The notes under the pieces were generated by a model. The model did no database searches. It saw nothing but the letters and a program-made list of their open reading frames with translations, and had not been told where the DNA came from. DNA of 61,826 nt, the filler included, from Basidioascus undulatus (taxonomy: Eukaryota): NCBI GenBank assembly GCA_000826855.1. It is 7 parts of 7 records of this genome, joined end to end, with 100 filler letters (N's around TTAATTAATTAA, not from the genome) between each part and the next. Parts side by side here need not be neighbours in the genome. Positions count along the whole stretch, not along the records: positions 1 to 5,805 come from JTLS01001869.1; 6 more parts are not named here. The stretch is one strand, 5' to 3'. Below, one piece after another: positions 3,048 to 44,974 of the stretch (positions within the stretch are counted from its first letter, which is position 1; the number at the start of each line of letters is the position of its first letter). Both the position numbers and the translations under genes were made by a program.

Positions 3048-3800
3048 AGAGGGGGTGGTTATGCCATTTATTCTCAAGGGTACTTTGCCCGTTCAGGGAC
3101 TGACAGGGCGGCGCTTGCTTGAATGCGTGACCGGTCATAGACTGCAGAACACTTAGAAAGCTGCTTCGGTTCGACTTCATCTAGGTGGGTTTATGATACC
3201 AGCCAGACAAGTTGGAATCCACCATGGAAATCAGCAAAATGACCATCGAGAGTACGGCCGGAGTTCTTTGAGAGAGCTTCGTCGACACGCTCGGGTACAT
3301 GCAAGTTAGACGTCAGATACATGAAAGCATGAATGTGCTTGATGAGTTTTATTGCCCTTCTACTAAAAATGCCGCGAGATAAAAGAAACTGCAGAGTTGC
3401 ATAAGAGATGGGAAACGAAGTAAAAGCATGCGACAAGTGTGCGATGTGCCGAACGGCAGTGCAAGCGGGAAACGAAGGAAACGGTTGAAAAGAGGGGATC
3501 GTGCTCGGGGGAGGAGGGCAGGGTGTTCGGATGGTGCAAGGGATAAATGGCAAAGCAAGAACCAAAGTGAAAGTGACATGGAAAGATGCACGGGAATAAG
3601 CTGGGCTGTGTGGGGGAGGATACTGTGAATCTGTGTTCGACAGGGTCAAGATATGAGAAAACGCCTACTCAGTAAGAATGACCAGCTTAGTCCTTCTTGA
3701 ATTTGAGGAGGATCTTCTTGGGTCTGGACATGGGATAGTCCGGTTAGCGGTCTGTATAGCTCGCTGACGTATAGGTCGCTGAACTTCGCAATTGATCGAC

Positions 3801-4532
3801 TCACTTCTTCTCCTTCCTCTCCTTCTTCTTCTCCTCCTCCTCGAAGTCCTCGAGATGCGTGCGGTCGAACTTCTCCTGCTGGAACTCGAAGTCGACGACG
3901 ACGTCGTTTTCGATGTTGATGCCCTCCTTGGGCGCGAGGGGGCTGGCACGGCGGCTGTGCTTCCGGTTCTTTTTGTTGTTGTGGTGCTGGCGGTGGGGGA
4001 AGTAAGGCACGTCGTCTCCGCCGCCCTTTCCGAGCTTCTTGTGCTTGAACTCCTCGAGCTGGAAATCGAGGTTCGTGTCGACGCTGTTGTCGATGTTGAT
4101 CGGGCTCTCCTCGGCCCCACGACGGCCGTGCTTCTTCTTGCCCGCCTTGTTGTGGTGCTGGTGGTGAGGGAAGTAGGGGACATCGTCGTCGCCGTCCTTG
4201 CCGCCGATGTGGTGTTTCTCGAACTTCTCCTGCTGGAACTCGAAGTCGACGACGACGTCGTTCTCGATGTTGATGCCCTCCTTGGGCGCGAGGGGGCTGG
4301 CACGGCGGCTGTGCTTCCGGTTCTTGTTGTTGTTGTGGTGCTGGCGGTGAGGGAAGTACGGGATGTCGTCGTCGCCGCCCTTGCCGCCGAGCTTCTTGTG
4401 CTTGTACTCCTGGAGCTGGAAATCGAGGTTCGTGTCGACGCTGTTGTCGATGTTGATCGGGCTCTCCTGCTGCGCAGCCAGGGCGACGGTGGCTGCGACG
4501 GCGAGTACGAGGGGGAAGACGACAGTGCGCAT
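3801..4532 (-). CDS. Secreted His-rich tandem-repeat protein with dibasic processing sites (Kex2-processed repeat protein candidate), 243 aa, intronless
   Basis: ATG at 4532 in ACAATG context; signal peptide MRTVVFPLVLAVAATVALA; four homologous units A-B-A'-B', the first three ending in RKHSRR, KKHGRR and RKHSRR; strong C/G3 codon bias. Confidence 0.85.
   Translation of the reverse strand: MRTVVFPLVLAVAATVALAAQQESPINIDNSVDTNLDFQLQEYKHKKLGGKGGDDDIPYFPHRQHHNNNKNRKHSRRASPLAPKEGINIENDVVVDFEFQQEKFEKHHIGGKDGDDDVPYFPHHQHHNKAGKKKHGRRGAEESPINIDNSVDTNLDFQLEEFKHKKLGKGGGDDVPYFPHRQHHNNKKNRKHSRRASPLAPKEGINIENDVVVDFEFQQEKFDRTHLEDFEEEEKKKERKEKK
3870..4470. repeat. Coding tandem duplication, period about 354-357 nt
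   Basis: gccctccttgggcgcgagggggctggcacggcggctgtgcttccggttct occurs at 3921 and 4275. The A and B units each appear twice. Confidence 0.95.
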
Positions 4533-5379
4533 TGTTAAAAGAGAGTGTGTGGGAAATAGTGTGTGTGGTGAAGAGTGTGGGGAGTAAGGAGTAGAAGTAG
4601 CTAGGTAGAGAGAAGGAGGAGCTGATGATGGACTTCGGAGCAGGAGTGCAGCCTGCTCTTTATGCGACAGTGGCCACTGCTGAAATGCATCGAAAGCGGC
4701 TGTTGTGGACGTTCTGGGCAGCTTGGCAACCGAGTCCAATGCCACCCTGAACAACATTAGCAAGCCCCTTGCGGTTCTGGGTCTGAATCACCCTGCCATC
4801 TGCTAGCAAGGGGGCACACAACACAGACACACAGCCAGCAGGGCGGCGAGAAGGGGCAGTCGATGCAGCGAGCCAGCAGAAGCGCCAGGGGCGTCCCGCC
4901 TCGGGTGGCCTGTCGATTTTTTTGGATACGGATCGAGTGATCGGATAGCTGTTTTGACGTTCTGCCCAGCAAGAAGACGGCTCGACGCTCGTTGCTGTCG
5001 TCGTCGAGTGACACGCCCTTGCAATTTTTCCACGCAGCTCTTTGCCATCATTCCTCGACACACACACTACAGGCTAAATAAACAATATCTTTCTGGTTAT
5101 TATATCCCACGACGTACGAAAGATGTCGATTATATCCTTTCGATCGTAACAGGAAGGTGCCTGAGCCAACCCACACAAAGCAATCGGCATGCACACCTAA
5201 ATGCAACTAATAGAGATCCTTGCGTATTTGCGTAACGGTACATCAGAATGAAAGCACGGCAAAGCACATTCGGTCGAAAAGAAAGAAAAAGTCTGAACAA
5301 GGAGGACTATACAGCAGCAGCTAAGGGAGAGGATCATGCGGGAGAAAGAAAGTGTCTTGCGGGCATCGAGATCAGCAAG

Positions 5380-5956: not shown

Positions 5957-6024
5957 CCCCTGTCACATTCCCGGCCTCCCCTGTTGCACTCTCGCCCTCC
6001 CCAGTCACACTCCCGCCCTCCCCC
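5957..6024. repeat. Imperfect 21-nt tandem repeat (3 units)
   Basis: cccctgtcacattcccggcct / cccctgttgcactctcgccct / ccccagtcacactcccgccct. Confidence 0.8.
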
Positions 6025-8304
6025 GCCTCTTGGCAACACAGCCCTTCTGGTAGCTATAAGAGCGCCCACTTACCCTCTACTTGCTCCCCATCTGGTCTTG
6101 CTCTCCCACTCCCGCCCTAGCCCTAGTCTTCGCCCTAGCCCTACCTCGCCGCATAATCTATCCCTGACACCATAGAGCCCCGTCAGCTGGTAGCCCCCGC
6201 TGTGGTCTGCCCCGCCCAGTCGAATTCTTGACAACAGCCCCGAAACACACGCTTCCAGAGGGAACTGCCTCGCAATTTCGGCTCCCTGTGGTGCAGCAGT
6301 CGCTTGCGTTAGGTGTGTGTGGTTTACTTCGGTTTATATAACTCATATGGTATCAGGCTCACCAAATGATTACTGCGCCTGATATTGTGCTGTGCAAGTC
6401 AATTTCAGATGGCAAAGTGCGGCCTTCAGAAATATTACTCACTCGAGTATTGGATCTCAGTTTCCTCAAGGATCTCAAATCATCTGCTGCTTCAGTGATC
6501 TGGCCCTTCAGTTGTCCGGGACTTGGTAATACTTTCACCTATGTAAGCTGTACATGTTTGAGCTGAACAGACTGCCTTCCAAGTCTGTGCACTCTTCCTG
6601 GACCAACTTTTGCAGAAAGGACATGAACAGGCACCTTTTCATGCATATATTCAGAATCATTGGAGTTACAGATACTTCTAGTCAACTGGTAAATACTCTT
6701 ACAATGTACATTTGCTTCAATGTCTTGCCTGGATATCAAGGGTGTCAAAGATCCCAGCAAGAAGGCAGTTCCAGGCGTCCCTTGGTCATCAGTGAAATTT
6801 TACTTTTCATGTTTTCAGGACATGAAATTTTGGCCTTGTTCAGACAGTGGAGAGTCTGAAATTGAGGCTGACAATGGATTGGGATTGAGCCTGTAGCTTA
6901 TCACGGTGCAGTCTGCTAGGTGTGGCAATGAGCAAGTGACATGACTCTGCGGTTAAAGACACAGGAAGAGCACAGTAGGGCTCTGCTCTGACCAGCATTG
7001 TACAATTTGGGATCATGAGACTCTATGGGTGTGGCTATGCTGTGTGCTGACCTGGGTGGGCCTGACCAGCTTGGACCATGCTAATTGGAAGTGTAATAAC
7101 AAGGGATGTATGTCCAAACTATCAGTGTATGGCTAAAATATGTTTGGATGTGACACACTGGCTGGGTGTTGGTTGCTGCATCGGGATAGCAAACATGGCA
7201 GCGACAGGTGAGCCTGTATAAAAGTAAAGATTTTCTCCAAGACATAGATGTCACAGGGAAAAAACAAAACTCATCAAGTCATGAAGTCATAATGCCTTGA
7301 CTGCATGATATTTTAGCTGACAAAGACATGCTTCATGGATGGGTTCAATGTGAGCTTGTTGCAATAGTCCTCTGGGCCAGTCAACCGTGAGGCAGCCACA
7401 AGTGAAAATGTACTTCAATTGTACCATACTAACTTACTCATCAGACACTGGAAAGGTGTGATTTCAGTTGGACAGCAGGACTCTGGGCATGGATTAGCAC
7501 CAGGTAGTGTGAGATGTGAGACAATGGAGCAGTACAGCCAGTGAGTATGACTGGCCTGGATTATTTGATTCTCTGCCATGAAACGAAGGGGGGTTTTTTT
7601 TTCCCTTTAACATGGCAAACGAACAGGATGAGGCAGAGTCAAACTGGTTAGGCAAGTGCTGATCACCAAGACAAACTGAACCAGTAGCTATATATTAAAG
7701 GCACACTGACTAGACTGAGACAAATTCCTGGTCCTGAATGCCCGACTGGATTGTGAGACCATGGCATTGCATCCTGTGGAACGACCGGTGTCGGCCAGTG
7801 CATCCGTCCACACAGGACTTCGCAAGGTGTTGACATCAGAGAGGCACTTGATGGTAATCTCTCATAAAGTTCATGTTTCTGAAATATTAACTAGTAAAGG
7901 GCTTACTAGTATGCCAACATATCACTGGATGTCAAGAGTGGCGTTGAAGCTTGATGTGTACGGGTGAATATCTTCACTTTGGCAAGGCATTCATGGGACA
8001 AGCTCTGACGGGTGCCCTCTATTACAAAGAATAGGTACTGTCAGTGGATGCAAGATGTTTGCAACAGTTTTTCAGCGTCCGCACTGGATGTCAAGAGCAG
8101 TGTAACAGCCTGATGTGGAGGATGAAAAACTTCATTATTGTAAGATGTCACGAGACAAGACCTAATAATACCTCTCTTACACTGCATATGTTAGACTTGG
8201 CTCTTAGGAGTTGGTTCAACGGGTATCGAGCCGCATTTAGGCCTTCGCACCGGATATCAAGCGTCGTGTTGAATATTCAATAAGGGACAACAAAGTTTTG
8301 TATT

Positions 8305-10779: not shown

Positions 10780-28082
<17,303 letters not shown>

Positions 28083-33537: not shown

Positions 33538-36500
33538 TTAACGGTTCGCGTAGCGAAGGAACCTGGACGCAATGAGGGTACAGATGATGTTGAAAGCAGT
33601 GAAAGCGATGAGGATGCCTATGGGACGGGTTTCGCGGTCAGTTTATGCATCAGATAGCTTGCAACCATGGGAGGAAAAGAATGGACACAAACTTACCGAG
33701 ATCGCGCCACCGGTCGTCGAACGAAATGCCGAGCGGGGTGTAGAACTGGTCGCCGAGGTTGTATTGGCAGAACCCGCAGTCGGACGTGGCGTTCGGGTCG
33801 CGGAGGTACTGGAAGATGACGACAGCAGTCAGCATCGGTGTTGGGGTAGCCAAGCGTTATATCTACACTTACTCCGCCCATCGAGTCGACATACGGCTGC
33901 GCCCAGTCGCCGCACGTCTGCCCGGACGGCGGCTGGAACACGGCGAACTCCTCCGGCTTGCAGCGGACCTCGAGGCCGTGCAGCTCGGTCGACACCATGC
34001 CAGAGATGAGACGCGTGAAGGGGTCGAGTTGGTCTGGAAAAAAGTAGAGGGAAGGAACTTCAGTACAGCGAATGTTGTCCAGAGATTCTTGCTTGAACAT
34101 ACACATCCAAACACGCCAGCTGCACGATGCGATTCCCCGTCAGCTCTGGTCTCAGCCATCGAGTGGTGGGTTGCGGACTCACAAGTAGATCATGTTAGGC
34201 TTGGGGATCGTGACACCGCAGAAAAGAGAGAAGATGACGAGCAGGAACGGGTTGAAGAGCGCGGCGATGAAGATCGACGGAGAGAGCGCAGCAACGAGCT
34301 GGCCGAGCGTGACCGAGTACACCTCAGTGATGAGGATGATAAAGAACTAGCGCAGCACGTCTGTCAGCATCGAGCGGCCACGTCTGCTCGTGATTGTGGT
34401 GGACCAACCTGGTATCCAGCGCGGTCGGACGAAGTGTTGAAGCCGGCAGGGTAGGTGAGGAGCAGGAAGAAGGCCGTCGCGCAGAGCAAGCTGTTCGGCA
34501 TCTCGGAGACGAGCTGCGCGAGCGAGAAGACAAACGGCGAGTACATCTGGATGCGGGCTGCTGTCAGTGACAGAACGACTAAAGTATTCAAATGCACGCA
34601 CCCTCGAAGAGTCCTCGCGCACAAAGGTGGACCTGGCCATGATGTACGTCGGCTCGACCTGGGCAAGAATAAGGGCAGGCATGACCGTCGCAACTGCGAG
34701 ACGGAACACAGCGTCAGCGAAAGCCTCGGAGAACTACAATTTGCAAGCCTGACGAACTGAAGATGACGAAGACGCGGTATTGCAGTTCGGCGACGGCTAT
34801 GGAGCGAAAGGGTCAGCATGAGGAATCCTGGTCTTAGACAGCAGACAGCAGGTGATTGCGCACAATCGCCGAGCATGAGGAACGTGAGCGAGGTGAAGAG
34901 GGCGATGATCATGTGAGAGAAACTGCGGAGGCGATCAGGTTAACAAAGAACGGACGATTAAAACGCAGTGAGCGACGACGCACAGACGAGTGAAGCCATA
35001 GTCTGGCATGCGCCAGAACGACAGGAACGTGCGCTTGCCGACAACCTTAAGCTGGAAGAGGAAGGAGGTGTTGTCTGGCCGTGAAGTGGACAGTCAGGTC
35101 GGTGCGTTTCTGGAAGGATCAGACGGCGTTGGACGTACAACGGCTGGTGGCGGCCTTCTCTTCGGGGAAATCCTTCAGTGCCTGGGCGTTAAGCTCCTCG
35201 ATGACGCGCTTGTTCTCGGCGAACTCCTCCGACTTGAGGTAGACCTCCGACCACGGCTTAGGCCCAACGCGCTTCTTGGTCCCGGCACCGATAGCGTCGA
35301 GCTGCGTTCGGACCGTCAGTTTTTCTGGTCTACAATGAGGCAGCAGAAACTGTACACACCATGTACTCCGCGGGGTTGGCGTCAGGCGGGCAGTGCGCGC
35401 CGTGCTTCGCGAGGTAGTTGACGAGGACGTGCGAGTCCTTGCCGACGTCGCCGAAGTAGACGGTCTTGCCGCCACGCTCGAGAAGAAGGAGGCGGTCGAA
35501 CTGCTCGAAGAGAAGGGCGCTGTGCGATATTGACGTACGTCAGTGGACGGACGGGAGCTTGGAAAGAAGGGAAGACTGACTTGGGCTGGTGGATCGTGCA
35601 GAGAATGGCCTGACCGGCGGCAGCAAGCTTCTTCAGGAAGCGGACGATGCTGCGAATGGACGTGTGTCAGTCAAGGCTACGCACACAGAGTTCGAGCATA
35701 CGCACTTGTAAGCAGACTGGCCGTCGAGACCGGAAGTAGGCTACAAGGTGATGATGCGTTAGTCGTGCTTTGAGAAGCAAATTGGGGAGGGAGTTGCGCA
35801 CCTCGTCAAGGAAAAGAAGGAGCTGCGGCTTCGCAGCGAGCTCAACACCGATAGTCAGACGCTTGCGAGCCTCGACGCCGAGACCTGGAAGAAGCAATCG
35901 GGTGTAAGAGAATGAAGTGAGAAAGGTTGAGTGGAAAGACACGGACCGTAGCCGGGGAAACCGATCATTGCATCCGCGATGTCCTCCATCTCGAGAAGCT
36001 GGATAATCTCCCTGAATGTGCGAGACGCTTAAGAATGCGCAATCCCTGCAAATTCATCCTCTGGAAGACGTACTCGACGTAGTCGTCCTTCTCCTCCTTC
36101 GAGACCTCCTTCGGCTGGCGCAGGTAGGCCGAGAAGCGAAGGGCCTCGCGGACGGTGGTGGTCCACTCGTGAACTGAAGACACGACACGGCGCGTAAGCT
36201 TCGCGCCAGAGGAAATTTGGATGTGATATTCAACGCACCATCCTGTTGCTCGCAGTACGCCGCGCCGGCCTGGAAGTCCATGCCGATGGGACGGCCGGCG
36301 ATACGGATCTCGCCGGTGATGACACCCATGGTCTTGCGGTCAGCGAGGACGTCCTGTTAAACCGGGAGGAAGGGGGTCAGTGATGAGCTTGATGTGCGGA
36401 GTAAGTGTCCAAACGTACGAGGAGCGTGGTCTTGCCGGCGCCGGATGCCTGCGATGAACGAGAGCGTGAGATCAAGTGCAGCAGCATCAAACCCACACGA

Positions 36501-38200
36501 GAAGAAGACTTGCACCCATAAGCGCAGTGAGCGTGCCGGGCTTGACGTAACCGAAGCTGGAACGATCAACGTGAGCTGCGGAAACTGAATTGAAGAGGAT
36601 CATAAGGTGGAACGTACACGTTGTCGAGCAGCTGCTTCTGACCGCCAGGAACCGGGACGGTGTAGCACTACACGCCGGCGCAAGGGCATCAGAAACGCGC
36701 CATGCACGATTCAAAAAGAAAAAGCAACACACGAGGTTGGACCACGTAAAGGGCTTGCGCGTCTTAATGAGGCCGTCGAGGTTCTGCTGCGCGGTGCCCT
36801 TCCGGAACGCCTCCTTGCGCTCCTGGAGGCGCTGGTTGCGGACCTGGGTGTCCTTGTCTTCGGGTTTGTAGACAGTGATGGACGAGGCGTGGGCGCCGTG
36901 CGCGACGATCTCAACGAGGATCATCTGCAGGGTCTGGAAGCCGACAAAGAAGGCGATGATGATCCCAAAGTTGCGCCAGCGGTCGCCCGGGCTGCAGAAG
37001 ACGGAGAGGAACAGGCTCAGTCCATCTAGCTGTACGCGGGTGACCGAGGCAGAAGGAAAAGACCCACCTGTACTGGAACGCAGTCTCCACATAGTCGGTG
37101 CCGCTCACGTACGGGTTGCCCGGCTGGGCGCCACGCAGCGTGCAGACCTGGTTCGGGCCGAGGGTGGTCGGGTACTGCGGGAGGAGCGAGGGGACCTGGT
37201 ACATCGGGTCGCAGAGCAGGTTGAGGCGCATGAACTCGTTCGTCATGAGCGCGCTGAAGCCGTAGTTGAGCGGGTTGAGGTAGCTGGGCGAAAAATCGAG
37301 CATAAAGCGTTAGCTGACCGCGCGTACATAAGTTGGTGTGGGACGCACGAGATCCAGAAGAGCCAGCGCTTCATGGCGAAGACGGGGATCATGTAACCGG
37401 CGTCTGGAAGAGACAGCGTCAGCCGCATCGAACTTGCGATGAAAAAGAAACACAAGCAACTCACAAAGAACCATGCCCGTGACGAGGAACGACGCAAGAC
37501 GCGCCGCGACATCGTAGCTGACACACACGGTACCGATCATACGGAAGAACGCGGTCATGGCGAGGAACGTCAGGTAGATGATCTGTGTATCGCCTCATTA
37601 TGTCAGCCACGCGTCCGGAAAAGCAAGACCCACACCAAGGCCGGCAGGCAACGCACGATGTAGAACGTGAAGAACGCGCCTGCCGACCGCGACAGACCAG
37701 CCATGAAGTAGATGATGATTGAGAAGAGCATGATCTGTCCCCGCCGCACCGCGTGAGCTGGACTGAACTGCAGGAAGGGAGAGGGTAAGCGGAGAAGACG
37801 GACCTGGAGCGCCGAGAACGGAATGTCTGCGACGATGGCTGCGAGCGAGAGGGCCGAGGGGCGGTAGAATTGGAAGCCTGGCGGTAGGGGATGTGAGATT
37901 TGTGCGGGGAAAGGCACTGGGGGAATGAGTACGGACCGATTTGCTTGTACAGGATGGGGCGACCCATCATCTGGGACGGCAATTCCGAGAATGCGTTCAG
38001 GCCGTTGCTGGAGAGAGGACCATGAATGAGTTTTGAAAACGTCTAGACTTGGATCAGTACGCACAAGAGCAGAGCTGCGGCGATCCAACGCGTGTCAGAG
38101 GCGTTCTGAGGGCGGCCATGATGAGGGAGAAACGCACCAATGAAGATGACACCGCCGCGAGTGAACGCGCCAGAGGCAGACTCGGGGAGGTTGAGGTAGA
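33538..38200 (-). CDS. PDR/ABCG full-size multidrug ABC transporter (Snq2-like), TMD1-NBD2-TMD2; 5' lost at contig end
   Basis: [99 protein letters not shown]-terminus [11 protein letters not shown]. Confidence 0.95.
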
Positions 38201-44374: not shown

Positions 44375-44974
44375 ATTCACGCCTCCGAGCGTCCCGACTC
44401 TCCTCAAAATTCTCGCCAACAATGCGACGGTGCAGGAGGACTTTACCCGCGCTGAGAATGCAATCATTTTAAAACGTGGCGAAATCGTGGAGCTCCGTAT
44501 CAAGGGTTCCAACCATGGCATAGAGTGCGTCAACGAGCTCTTTTTTTTCATATCTCCAGTTGCTATTAAGCTGACTAAACGTGTTCCTTCTGCTCCAGCC
44601 ACCCATTCCACCTCCACGGCCATGTGTTCGATGTCATCAAGAGCAAAGATGGACCGCCGAACTACGTGAACCCCCCGAGGAGGGACGTCGTTGCCGTTAG
44701 TGGGGGCGGTGTGATTATTCGCTTTGTAGCCGATAACCCTGGCCCGTGGTTCCTTCACTGGTGCGCCCACCAGCGTGTTCCTTTTCTCTGTAAACCATTC
44801 GAATACCCCCATGACACCTTCCTTTCTTGTAGCCACATCGACTGGCATCTCGACGCCGGCTTGGCCGTCGTTTTCGCCGAGGACCCTGCCGGCACACGAG
44901 GCAGAGTCAACCCGAACGACAACTGGTTCAACCTCTGCCCGATTTACGACGCCTTGGACCCCGCTTTGCAGTAG
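44375..44974 (+). CDS. Laccase/multicopper oxidase, domain 3 (last three exons; 5' lost at contig end)
   Basis: PPSVPTLLKILAN, L3 HPFHLHGH, NYVNPPRRDVV, L4 DNPGPWFLHC|HIDWHLDAGL (axial Leu), C-terminus WFNLCPIYDAL. Confidence 0.95.

What the first reader, a model, noticed from the sequence alone, without database searches (positions are those of the whole stretch)
3801..4532. Secreted A-B-A-B precursor of His-rich, beta-patterned peptides with Kex2-type cleavage sites
Seen: a signal peptide followed by four related units of about 48-61 aa. Unit A is ESPINIDNSVDTNLDFQL(Q/E)E(Y/F)KHKKLG..GDD(I/V)PYFPHRQHHN..RKHSRR. Unit B is ASPLAPKEGINIENDVVVDFEFQQEKF..HHIGGKDGDDDVPYFPHHQHHN..KKHGRR. The first three units each have an alternating polar/hydrophobic acidic segment, a Gly/Asp linker, a conserved PYFPHxQHH motif and a basic tail ending in RR. 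The last unit swaps the His tail for an acidic-then-basic end. A and B are diverged homologues, so an old duplication was followed by a recent AB duplication. Established: fungal Kex2-processed repeat proteins yield pheromones, RiPPs, toxins and the amyloid-like repellents of Ustilago Rep1. Inference: this locus releases two co-produced peptide types that may co-assemble as beta-fibrils displaying metal-binding His clusters, or act as effector or antimicrobial peptides. I do not recognise the family, and no DUF3328 or other tailoring gene is on this contig.
Basis: partly seen in the sequence, partly recalled or inferred. Interest (0 to 1): 0.78.

Follow-up and report, generated by a model that had tools for sequence, protein, structure and literature searches.

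The report
Orphan fungal secreted repeat-peptide precursor
A real gene of a basidiomycete fungus, with no relatives in any database searched, encodes a secreted protein of four related histidine-rich units of about 55 residues separated by Arg-Arg sites; this is the common layout of fungal Kex2-processed peptide precursors, so it is a new example of a known kind with an untested function.

Summary
On the minus strand, 4532..3801 is an intron-free 243-codon ORF. It has a signal-peptide-like N-terminus and then four units in A-B-A-B order. Arg-Arg occurs three times, only at unit ends, and three units carry a PYFPHxQHH motif.

Codon statistics single out this frame. GC3 is 0.92, against 0.45 just upstream of the ATG. 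Differences among copies are biased to third codon positions.

Contigs of the source organism show at least three further loci with 80-90% similar copies. Arg-Arg is kept at every unit boundary I could read in them.

No relative appeared in Pfam, PDB, the two large protein collections, metagenome contigs, two published KEP catalogues or the full-text search. The databases also lack close relatives of this fungus: its best housekeeping match is 58% identical.

[quoted passage not shown] KEPs average about five per fungal genome and about a third have no homologues, so this is a new member of a known kind.

The proposed beta-fibril and metal-binding functions gained no support. The beta pattern is no stronger than in shuffles, and AlphaFold predicted no strands. 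Expression and cleavage are untested.

The parts
4533..4632 (-). Pyrimidine-rich leader or core-promoter region directly upstream of the ATG
   Evidence: C+T is 0.76 on the coding strand in -100..-1, against 0.53 in -400..-101. The 75 in-frame codons upstream of the ATG have GC3 0.45, so the longer ORF from 4757 is not coding.
4476..4532 (-). Signal-peptide-like N-terminus (residues 1-19, A-x-A before the predicted cut)
   Evidence: Basic residue 2, hydropathy peak 3.04, A at -3 and -1 for a cut after residue 19. This is rule-of-thumb only; SignalP was not run.
4302..4466 (-). Unit A1 (residues 23-77), His motif at 4335-4361, RR at 4302-4307
4119..4301 (-). Unit B1 (residues 78-138), His motif at 4152-4178, RR at 4119-4124
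3948..4118 (-). Unit A2 (residues 139-195), His motif at 3981-4007, RR at 3948-3953
   Evidence: 49 of 54 residues are identical to A1.
3804..3947 (-). Unit B2 (residues 196-243): B-type N-terminal half, then an acidic-then-basic tail in place of the His tail
   Evidence: The only predicted helix is residues 225-242. Similar tails are seen in other copies of the genome (hand translation).
3801..3803 (-). Stop codon TGA of the unspliced reading
3724..3804 (-). Candidate 81-nt intron (GTGAGT ... CTAAC ... CAG) whose donor overlaps the stop codon
   Evidence: A strict donor-branch-acceptor pattern matches here. It matches only 11 times on both strands of the whole 61.8-kb window. There is no RNA evidence.
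3687..3723 (-). Candidate second exon: 11 further residues (PKKILLKFKKD) and stop TAA 3689-3687
   Evidence: In frame after the candidate splice. GC3 is 0.91 over 11 codons.

Best explanation
The locus is a real gene for a secreted pre-pro-protein with the layout of fungal Kex2-processed repeat proteins (KEPs). It is one member of a lineage-specific multigene family. Proposed mechanism (inferred, not shown): the signal peptide is removed in the ER. A Golgi kexin then cuts after each of the three Arg-Arg pairs, and a Kex1-type carboxypeptidase trims the basic ends. This releases four linear, unmodified, Cys-free peptides of 48-59 residues (5.8-6.7 kDa) of two types. Each A or full B peptide has two parts, an acidic N-terminal half and a Lys/His-rich C-terminal half with the PYFPHxQHH motif. 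With 5-7 His each, their computed net charge moves from about 0 to -3 at pH 7.4 to about +3 to +4 at pH 5.5. I therefore expect them to act outside the cell, at the hyphal wall or in the medium, as pH- or metal-responsive peptides. I do not expect them to be cyclised RiPPs or mating signals.
For: Coding frame: GC3 is 0.91-0.92, against 0.84 in the dynein exons of the same window. The codon-usage score is 196 bits, against 41 for the next best of the six frames. GC3 drops to 0.45 directly upstream of the ATG.

Selection: between the recent duplicates there are 5 synonymous and 6 non-synonymous changes, omega about 0.3, one-sided binomial p 0.039. Of the 40 variant letters listed among genomic copies (72 more not shown), 23 lie at third codon positions (p 0.0014) and 23 are synonymous when taken singly.

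Secretion signal and site placement.

Operational KEP criteria of PMC6339444 (methods section read): exactly 4 fragments after cutting at KR/RR; three similar non-terminal fragments; repeats far above 15% of the length.

Family: contigs of 9.2, 6.1 and 11.8 kb in run X1 match only 160-250 nt of the repeat, with 18-31 other letters, and then continue unlike the window. This indicates at least three other loci.

RR conservation: 18 loose ends were displayed and 31 more were not. Four of the displayed ones carry a unit boundary, and all 4 read RR just before the next unit (HSRR/ATPFQQ, DKMYRR/AAAE, KKHGRR/AAAE, KKHSRR/ASP). This is my hand translation. One boundary keeps RR in an otherwise different tail. 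The RR codons of residues 76 and 194 show synonymous CGC-to-CGT variants among the copies.

Charge switch.

Precedent: KEPs with two repeat types (77 of 1193) and with peptides over 51 residues are on record (PMC6339444, passages). Ustilago Rep1 yields peptides of 34-53 residues (PMC3133707, passage).
Against: Neither cleavage nor expression is shown, and no RNA run was available.

Four fragments and three non-terminal repeats are the bare minimum of the published pipeline.

Peptides over 51 residues are a minority class in Dikarya (PMC6339444, passage).

RR could be kept simply as part of a basic tail.

A versus B gives omega near 1, so only motif islands are constrained.

X1 and X2 may be one strain or one data set, and the paralogue read-outs are short hand translations of a partial listing.

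No genome is held, so the presence of a kexin gene was not checked.

The orphan status is weakened by poor database sampling of this lineage: the best hit to its GT21 enzyme is 58% identical.
Confidence: 0.55

Rival explanations
1. The gene is real and the product is secreted, but it is not cut. It would act as one intrinsically disordered, charged repeat protein, for example a wall-associated, adhesive, water-holding or metal-binding protein. It would be comparable in behaviour to unprocessed repetitive secreted proteins such as Ustilago Rsp3 or the His-rich DELD proteins of Piriformospora indica.
For: AlphaFold2 gives mean pLDDT 47.6 and no secondary structure apart from a C-terminal helix. 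The mature protein is 13% Lys, 19% Asp+Glu and 8% His. There are only three dibasic RR sites. Unprocessed repetitive or His-rich secreted families exist in basidiomycetes (PMC5923269, search listing and abstract only; PMC3192844, passages).
Against: RR sits only at unit ends in this protein and at all 4 boundaries readable in other copies, including one with a different preceding tail. RR codons vary synonymously. This placement is what the KEP pipelines select for.
Confidence: 0.27
2. The ORF is not a functional gene. It would be a silent or decaying copy of a repeated sequence, and the family signal comes from other copies.
For: There is no homologue in any database and no evidence of expression. 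The sequence is multi-copy in the genome.
Against: The 243-codon frame is intact, with GC3 0.92 and a sharp drop to 0.45 at the ATG. The signal peptide is intact. Differences among copies are biased to third positions. The two recent duplicates differ with omega about 0.3. The leader is pyrimidine-rich.
Confidence: 0.08
3. It is a precursor of cyclised RiPPs of the ustiloxin or dikaritin type.
For: The general layout is the same: signal peptide and repeats ending in dibasic sites. One Tyr lies in each His motif.
Against: No DUF3328 match appeared in 79 ORF pieces of the window. Units are 48-61 residues, against typical repeat lengths of 8-14 residues in the ustiloxin, phomopsin and asperipin-2a precursors (PMC7329392, passage). 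Only 6.1% of basidiomycete KEP genes have a DUF3328 neighbour (same paper).
Confidence: 0.03

Closest known systems
Kex2-processed repeat proteins (KEPs) as defined by Le Marquer et al. 2019 (PMC6339444) and Umemura 2020 (PMC7329392)
   Same: Signal peptide, tandem related units, dibasic pair at the end of each unit, no membrane segment, repeats filling most of the protein. Two repeat types in one precursor also occur there (77 of 1193 KEPs). Orphan status is usual (2560 of 7878 KEPs have no homologue), and lineage-specific expansions occur in basidiomycetes.
   Different: KEP is an architectural class, not a homologous family. This sequence matches none of its members that the databases hold. 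It has only four units, and the units are long (48-61 residues, against a modal class of 9-24). Its motifs were not found in the held text of either catalogue's supplements, and those files may be cut.
Ustilago maydis Rep1 repellent precursor
   Same: A basidiomycete pre-pro-protein cut at Kex2 sites into peptides of similar size (34-53 residues; PMC3133707, passage) that act at the hyphal surface.
   Different: No sequence similarity: no database hit at all. This gene has 4 units against 12. The peptides are very hydrophilic and His-rich. The beta-amphipathic signal is not above chance, and amyloid formation is untested.
DELD family (His/Ala-rich small secreted proteins) of Piriformospora indica
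   Same: A lineage-specific, expanded family of Cys-free, His-rich secreted proteins without a known domain in an early-branching agaricomycete (PMC3192844, passages).
   Different: DELD proteins are single-domain, Ala-rich, predicted helical and end in RSIDELD. This protein has 2.7% Ala, no such motif, and repeat units ending in RR.
Alpha-factor-type pheromone precursors
   Same: Signal peptide and repeats released at dibasic sites.
   Different: No run of X-Ala or X-Pro dipeptides follows the sites. B units start Ala-Ser, and only A2 starts with one Gly-Ala. Peptides are four to five times longer. Basidiomycetes do not use this pheromone type (PMC6339444, passage).
Histatin-like His-rich cationic peptides (recalled, not checked in any call)
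   Same: Clusters of His with Lys/Arg in short secreted peptides, with charge and metal binding dependent on pH.
   Different: Here the His tail is fused to an acidic half, so the net charge is near zero or negative at neutral pH. There is no homology.

Membership tests
KEP (operational definition, PMC6339444 methods) | N-terminal signal peptide, no membrane segment | tested here: met
   Basic N-terminus, hydropathy peak 3.04, A-x-A site. The maximum after residue 25 is 0.84. This is by rule of thumb; SignalP and TMHMM were not on hand.
KEP (operational definition, PMC6339444 methods) | At least four fragments after cutting the mature protein at every KR or RR | tested here: met
   Exactly four fragments: residues 21-77, 78-138, 139-195 and 196-243.
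KEP (operational definition, PMC6339444 methods) | At least three similar fragments, the C-terminal one excluded | tested here: met
   A1/A2 are identical at 49 of 54 positions, A1/B1 at 27 of 55 and B1/A2 at 29 of 57. The paper's FIMO step was not run.
KEP (operational definition, PMC6339444 methods) | Repeats make up at least 15% of the protein | tested here: met
   Three units of at least 55 residues in 243 residues, about two thirds.
KEP (biological definition) | Actual cleavage by a kexin in the secretory pathway | not testable with these tools
   No proteomic data are available. No genome is held, so a kexin gene could not be sought.
Dikaritin / ustiloxin-type RiPP precursors | DUF3328 (UstYa-type) gene among the nearest genes | tested here: not met
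   79 ORF pieces of the window were scanned against Pfam and none matched DUF3328. Short exons could be missed, and only 3.8 kb is held on one side.
Dikaritin / ustiloxin-type RiPP precursors | Short repeats carrying the core peptide (typical repeat lengths 8-14 residues; PMC7329392, passage) | tested here: not met
   Units are 48-61 residues.
Rep1 repellents | Sequence relationship to Rep1 | tested here: not met
   No protein at E 0.001 or better among 1.84 billion representatives. None in the indexed searches.
Rep1 repellents | Peptides form amphipathic amyloid fibrils | tested here: inconclusive
   The beta hydrophobic moment is not above shuffles (542 of 1000 reach it). There are no strands in the AlphaFold2 model. 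Neither result excludes fibrils, so a wet test is needed.
Alpha-factor-type precursors | Repeated X-Ala / X-Pro (STE13) dipeptides after each dibasic site | tested here: not met
   After the RR sites the sequence reads Ala-Ser-Pro (twice) and Gly-Ala-Glu (once).
DELD family | C-terminal RSIDELD motif with regular His/Ala spacing | tested here: not met
   The motif is absent and Ala is 2.7%.

The most novel reading that the evidence does not exclude
The A and B peptides would be a two-component, pH- or metal-switchable self-assembling system at the hyphal surface. Below about pH 6, or on binding Zn, Cu or Ni, the His tails change charge and the acidic amphipathic halves pair into fibrils. This would be a new, Cys-free functional analogue of hydrophobins and repellents in a poorly sampled basidiomycete lineage, encoded by an expanded gene family.
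Probability: 0.06. Interest if true: 0.7.

Novelty: new member of a known kind. Interest (0 to 1): 0.3.

Why it matters
If the peptides are made, this adds a new sequence family to the poorly understood KEP class. The family has long units, two peptide types, many His residues and several gene copies. Almost no KEP function is known in basidiomycetes: knock-outs of Coprinopsis KEP genes gave no phenotype (PMC9769878, abstract). An expanded family with a conserved His motif and a computed pH-dependent charge switch is a tractable case for peptidomics and for binding or assembly assays. It does not open a long-standing question. Orphan KEP-type genes are found at about five per fungal genome, so the value is incremental.

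Tried and rejected
Homology searches all came back empty.
- Pfam: only two sub-threshold matches (N_peptide at 15.5 bits against a cut-off of 27.9; Ribosomal_L28e at 13.5 against 33.2).
- Indexed search of 5.8 billion proteins: near lengths gave 4368 candidates and none at E 0.01 or better. The unit profile against longer proteins gave 1782 candidates and none.
- phmmer against 1.84 billion representatives: 0 hits at E 0.001 or better.
- ESM Atlas: best feature score 0.76, below the level that shuffled proteins often reach.
- Metagenome contigs: 324 pattern matches and 0 confirmed. A back-translated His-motif pattern gave 9 loci; all match the motif only and have stop codons beside it, about the number I expected by chance from my own estimate.
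- Earlier findings of this scan: nothing for this place or sequence. A word search gave only unrelated prokaryote or amoeba cases.

PDB gave one hit, a COX7c chain (7jro_j), at E 0.0035 and 20 bits. It rests on about 17 residues around the Gly-rich linker and the P-Y-aromatic-x-H motif. I rejected it as chance or composition. That protein is a mitochondrial membrane subunit, this one has a signal peptide and no membrane segment, and the same score would be far from significant in the larger libraries, where nothing was reported.

Literature: the motifs were not found in the held supplements of PMC6339444 (4 files, 89,120 characters) or PMC7329392 (3 files, 732,332 characters). Those files may be cut or incomplete. 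They were also not found in the full text of the paper library.

Expression: no RNA holder was listed.

Run X3 held only copies below 90% likeness and none of the flanks. I draw nothing from that.

Whole genome: none is held. No paralogue lies in the window itself.

Structure: single-sequence AlphaFold2 gave no confident fold, so no fold search was run.

Complex prediction of A with B was not available.

Other reading frames: the plus-strand ORF 3855-4538 was rejected (codon score 41 against 196, GC3 0.63). The longer minus-strand ORF from 4757 was rejected (GC3 0.45 upstream of 4532).

The strong form of the beta-pattern claim was rejected.

Full report
**What is there.** The minus strand from 4532 to 3801 is one open frame of 243 codons plus the stop TGA.
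- A hydrophobic N-terminus is followed by four units in the order A1, B1, A2, B2.
- Identical residues over aligned columns: A1/A2 49 of 54, B1/B2 30 of 48, A1/B1 27 of 55, B1/A2 29 of 57.
- Tandem Repeats Finder reports a 183-nt period, 3.4 copies, score 616, at 3854-4457.
- Self-blastn gives 94.4% identity over 250 nt (E 1e-109) for the A-B against A-B duplication, and 68.75% over 448 nt for the A-against-B offset.
- In the mature protein KR or RR occurs three times, always RR and always as the last two residues of a unit.
- There is no Cys, no Trp and no N-glycosylation sequon. His is 8.1%, Lys 13.0% and Asp+Glu 19.3%.
- A PYFPHxQHH motif stands in A1, B1 and A2. B2 ends in an acidic-then-basic tail instead.

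**Is it a gene?**
- The proposed frame has GC3 0.91-0.92, like the dynein exons of the same window (0.84).
- Its codon-usage score is 196 bits, against 41 for the next best of the six frames.
- GC3 falls to 0.45 in the 75 in-frame codons upstream of the ATG at 4532. The longer ORF from 4757 is therefore not coding.
- The 100 nt before the ATG are 76% pyrimidine on the coding strand, against 53% further up. From recall, such tracts are common before well-expressed fungal genes.
- Between the recent duplicates there are 5 synonymous and 6 non-synonymous changes (omega about 0.3, one-sided binomial p 0.039).
- A against B gives omega near 1, so constraint lies in motif islands and not along the whole unit.

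**Signal peptide.** The N-terminus has a basic residue 2, a hydropathy peak of 3.04 and an A-x-A site before residue 20. No later 9-residue window exceeds 0.84. This fits a cleaved signal peptide and no membrane anchor. SignalP was not available.

**A family in the same genome.** No whole genome is held and the window contains no second copy.
- Two DNA runs hold the locus.
- When their contigs were laid on 3301-5100, the flanks had a depth of 18-19 (X1) and 48-53 (X2). The summed depth over the repeat reached 326 and 952. The tool warns that this is not a copy number.
- More telling, contigs of 9.2, 6.1 and 11.8 kb in X1 (13.1 and 11.8 kb in X2) match only 160-250 nt of the repeat, with 18-31 other letters, and then run on unlike the window (tables 1, 2, 8). 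That indicates at least three other loci with copies 80-90% alike.
- X1 and X2 may be the same strain or even the same data.
- I translated by hand the loose-end strings (18 displayed, 31 more not shown). Four carry a unit boundary, and all four read RR just before the next unit: HSRR/ATPFQQ, DKMYRR/AAAE, KKHGRR/AAAE and KKHSRR/ASP. One of them has an otherwise different tail.
- One joint shows a B-type tail followed directly by a B-type unit, so unit order varies among copies.
- Two loose ends read tails like this gene's C-terminal tail (THLEDFEEE, AHLREFEE).
- Of the 40 variant letters listed (72 more not shown), 23 are at third codon positions (p 0.0014). 23 are synonymous when taken singly, including CGC-to-CGT changes in the RR codons of residues 76 and 194.
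- Some of these variants are cross-matches between this gene's own units.

**No relatives elsewhere.**
- Pfam: nothing above threshold.
- Indexed search of 5.8 billion proteins: none.
- phmmer against 1.84 billion representatives: 0 hits at E 0.001 or better.
- ESM Atlas: best score 0.76.
- Metagenome contigs: 0 of 324 pattern matches confirmed, and 9 loci that match the motif only.
- PDB: one 20-bit match to a COX7c chain over a short Gly-rich and aromatic/His stretch, which I take as chance.
- The motifs are absent from the held supplements of the two KEP catalogues and from the paper library.
- Caveat: the fungus itself is poorly sampled. Its GT21 ceramide glucosyltransferase piece finds agaricomycete proteins at no more than 58% identity. 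"Orphan" therefore means "no relative among what is held".

**Surroundings.** The window carries these genes:
- a short-chain dehydrogenase (about 9.4-10.5 kb);
- a multi-exon dynein heavy chain (about 10.8-27.4 kb, minus strand);
- Ssl1/TFIIH (32.4-33.3 kb);
- a PDR-type ABC transporter piece (36.5-37.3 kb);
- GT21 (42.7-44.2 kb);
- a multicopper oxidase piece (44.6-45.0 kb);
- methionyl-tRNA synthetase (54.7-56.0 kb).

None of the 79 ORF pieces scanned matches DUF3328 or another peptide-tailoring family. Only 3.8 kb is held on the 3' side of the gene.

**Shape and chemistry.**
- Single-sequence AlphaFold2 gives mean pLDDT 47.6, pTM 0.13 and no secondary structure except a helix at residues 225-242.
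- The best beta hydrophobic moment (0.70, in the A units) was reached by 542 of 1000 shuffles. The "beta-patterned" reading is therefore not more than composition gives.
- After cutting at RR and trimming, the peptides would be 48-59 residues and 5.8-6.7 kDa.
- Computed net charge goes from -0.2 (A1), -3.2 (B1) and -0.3 (A2) at pH 7.4 to +4.1, +2.9 and +4.3 at pH 5.5. B2 stays acidic until below pH 5.5.

**Comparison with what is known.**
- Le Marquer et al. (PMC6339444; passages and the methods section read) select KEPs by four criteria: a signal peptide, at least four fragments after KR/RR cuts, at least three similar non-terminal fragments, and repeats covering at least 15% of the length. 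This protein meets each, the first two only just.
- They report 1193 KEPs, 77 with two motif types, and a class of peptides over 51 residues.
- Umemura (PMC7329392; abstract and passages) reports 7878 KEPs in 1461 strains, about 5.3 per basidiomycete, 2560 of them without any homologue, and basidiomycete types expanded to 5-18 copies per strain. Only 6.1% of basidiomycete KEP genes have a DUF3328 neighbour.
- Vogt et al. [quoted passage not shown]
- Rep1 of Ustilago gives peptides of 34-53 residues that form surface amyloid (PMC3133707, passages).
- The DELD proteins of Piriformospora are another lineage-specific, Cys-free, His-rich secreted family (PMC3192844, passages).
- This locus has the layout of the first class and is a member of none of the named sequence families.

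**A detail of the gene model.** The stop codon overlaps a GTGAGT. A CTAAC follows 51 nt after it, and a CAG lies 81 nt from the donor. This strict pattern occurs only 11 times on both strands of the window. Splicing 3805 to 3723 stays in frame, adds 11 residues (GC3 0.91) and ends at TAA 3689-3687. Without RNA data both C-termini stay open. The units are not affected.

**Verdict.** Cleavage, expression and every proposed function remain untested, and the amyloid and beta claims found no support. It is a new sequence family of a common, known kind of fungal gene, of modest interest.

Noticed in passing
window 3687-3804 (minus strand): The stop codon overlaps a canonical splice donor. An 81-nt candidate intron with a CTAAC branch site and a CAG acceptor would add 11 residues and move the stop to 3689-3687.
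   Followed up: partly
window 3850-4460, runs X1-X3: Summed contig depth over the repeat is up to about 17 times the flank depth. Several long contigs carry copies 80-90% alike at other loci of the same genome. The copies themselves could not be fetched.
   Followed up: partly
run X3 on window 3301-5100: X3 comes from the same sample as X2. It holds only four short contigs, all under 90% alike to the repeat, and nothing over the single-copy flanks. Whether it is low coverage, another library type or another organism is open.
   Followed up: no
window 4538-4579: A 16-nt tandem repeat (2.6 copies, TG/CA-rich) lies inside the pyrimidine-rich leader just upstream of the ATG.
   Followed up: no
window about 10800-27450 (minus strand): A cytoplasmic dynein heavy chain gene is split into many ORF pieces, so it has many introns. 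Only one of them fits the strict GTRAGT...CTRAY...YAG pattern.
   Followed up: no
window 36490-37309 and 44579-44971: Pieces of a PDR/CDR-type ABC transporter and of a multicopper oxidase lie near the GT21 ceramide glucosyltransferase.
   Followed up: no
window 6001-8000: G+C is 0.47 here, against 0.52-0.64 elsewhere in the window. No ORF piece with high GC3 lies in this stretch.
   Followed up: no
residues 163-192 of the protein (window about 3957-4046): There is a short resemblance (20 bits, E 0.0035 in PDB) between the Gly-rich linker plus His motif and the N-terminal part of a COX7c chain, 7jro_j. I take it as chance.
   Followed up: partly
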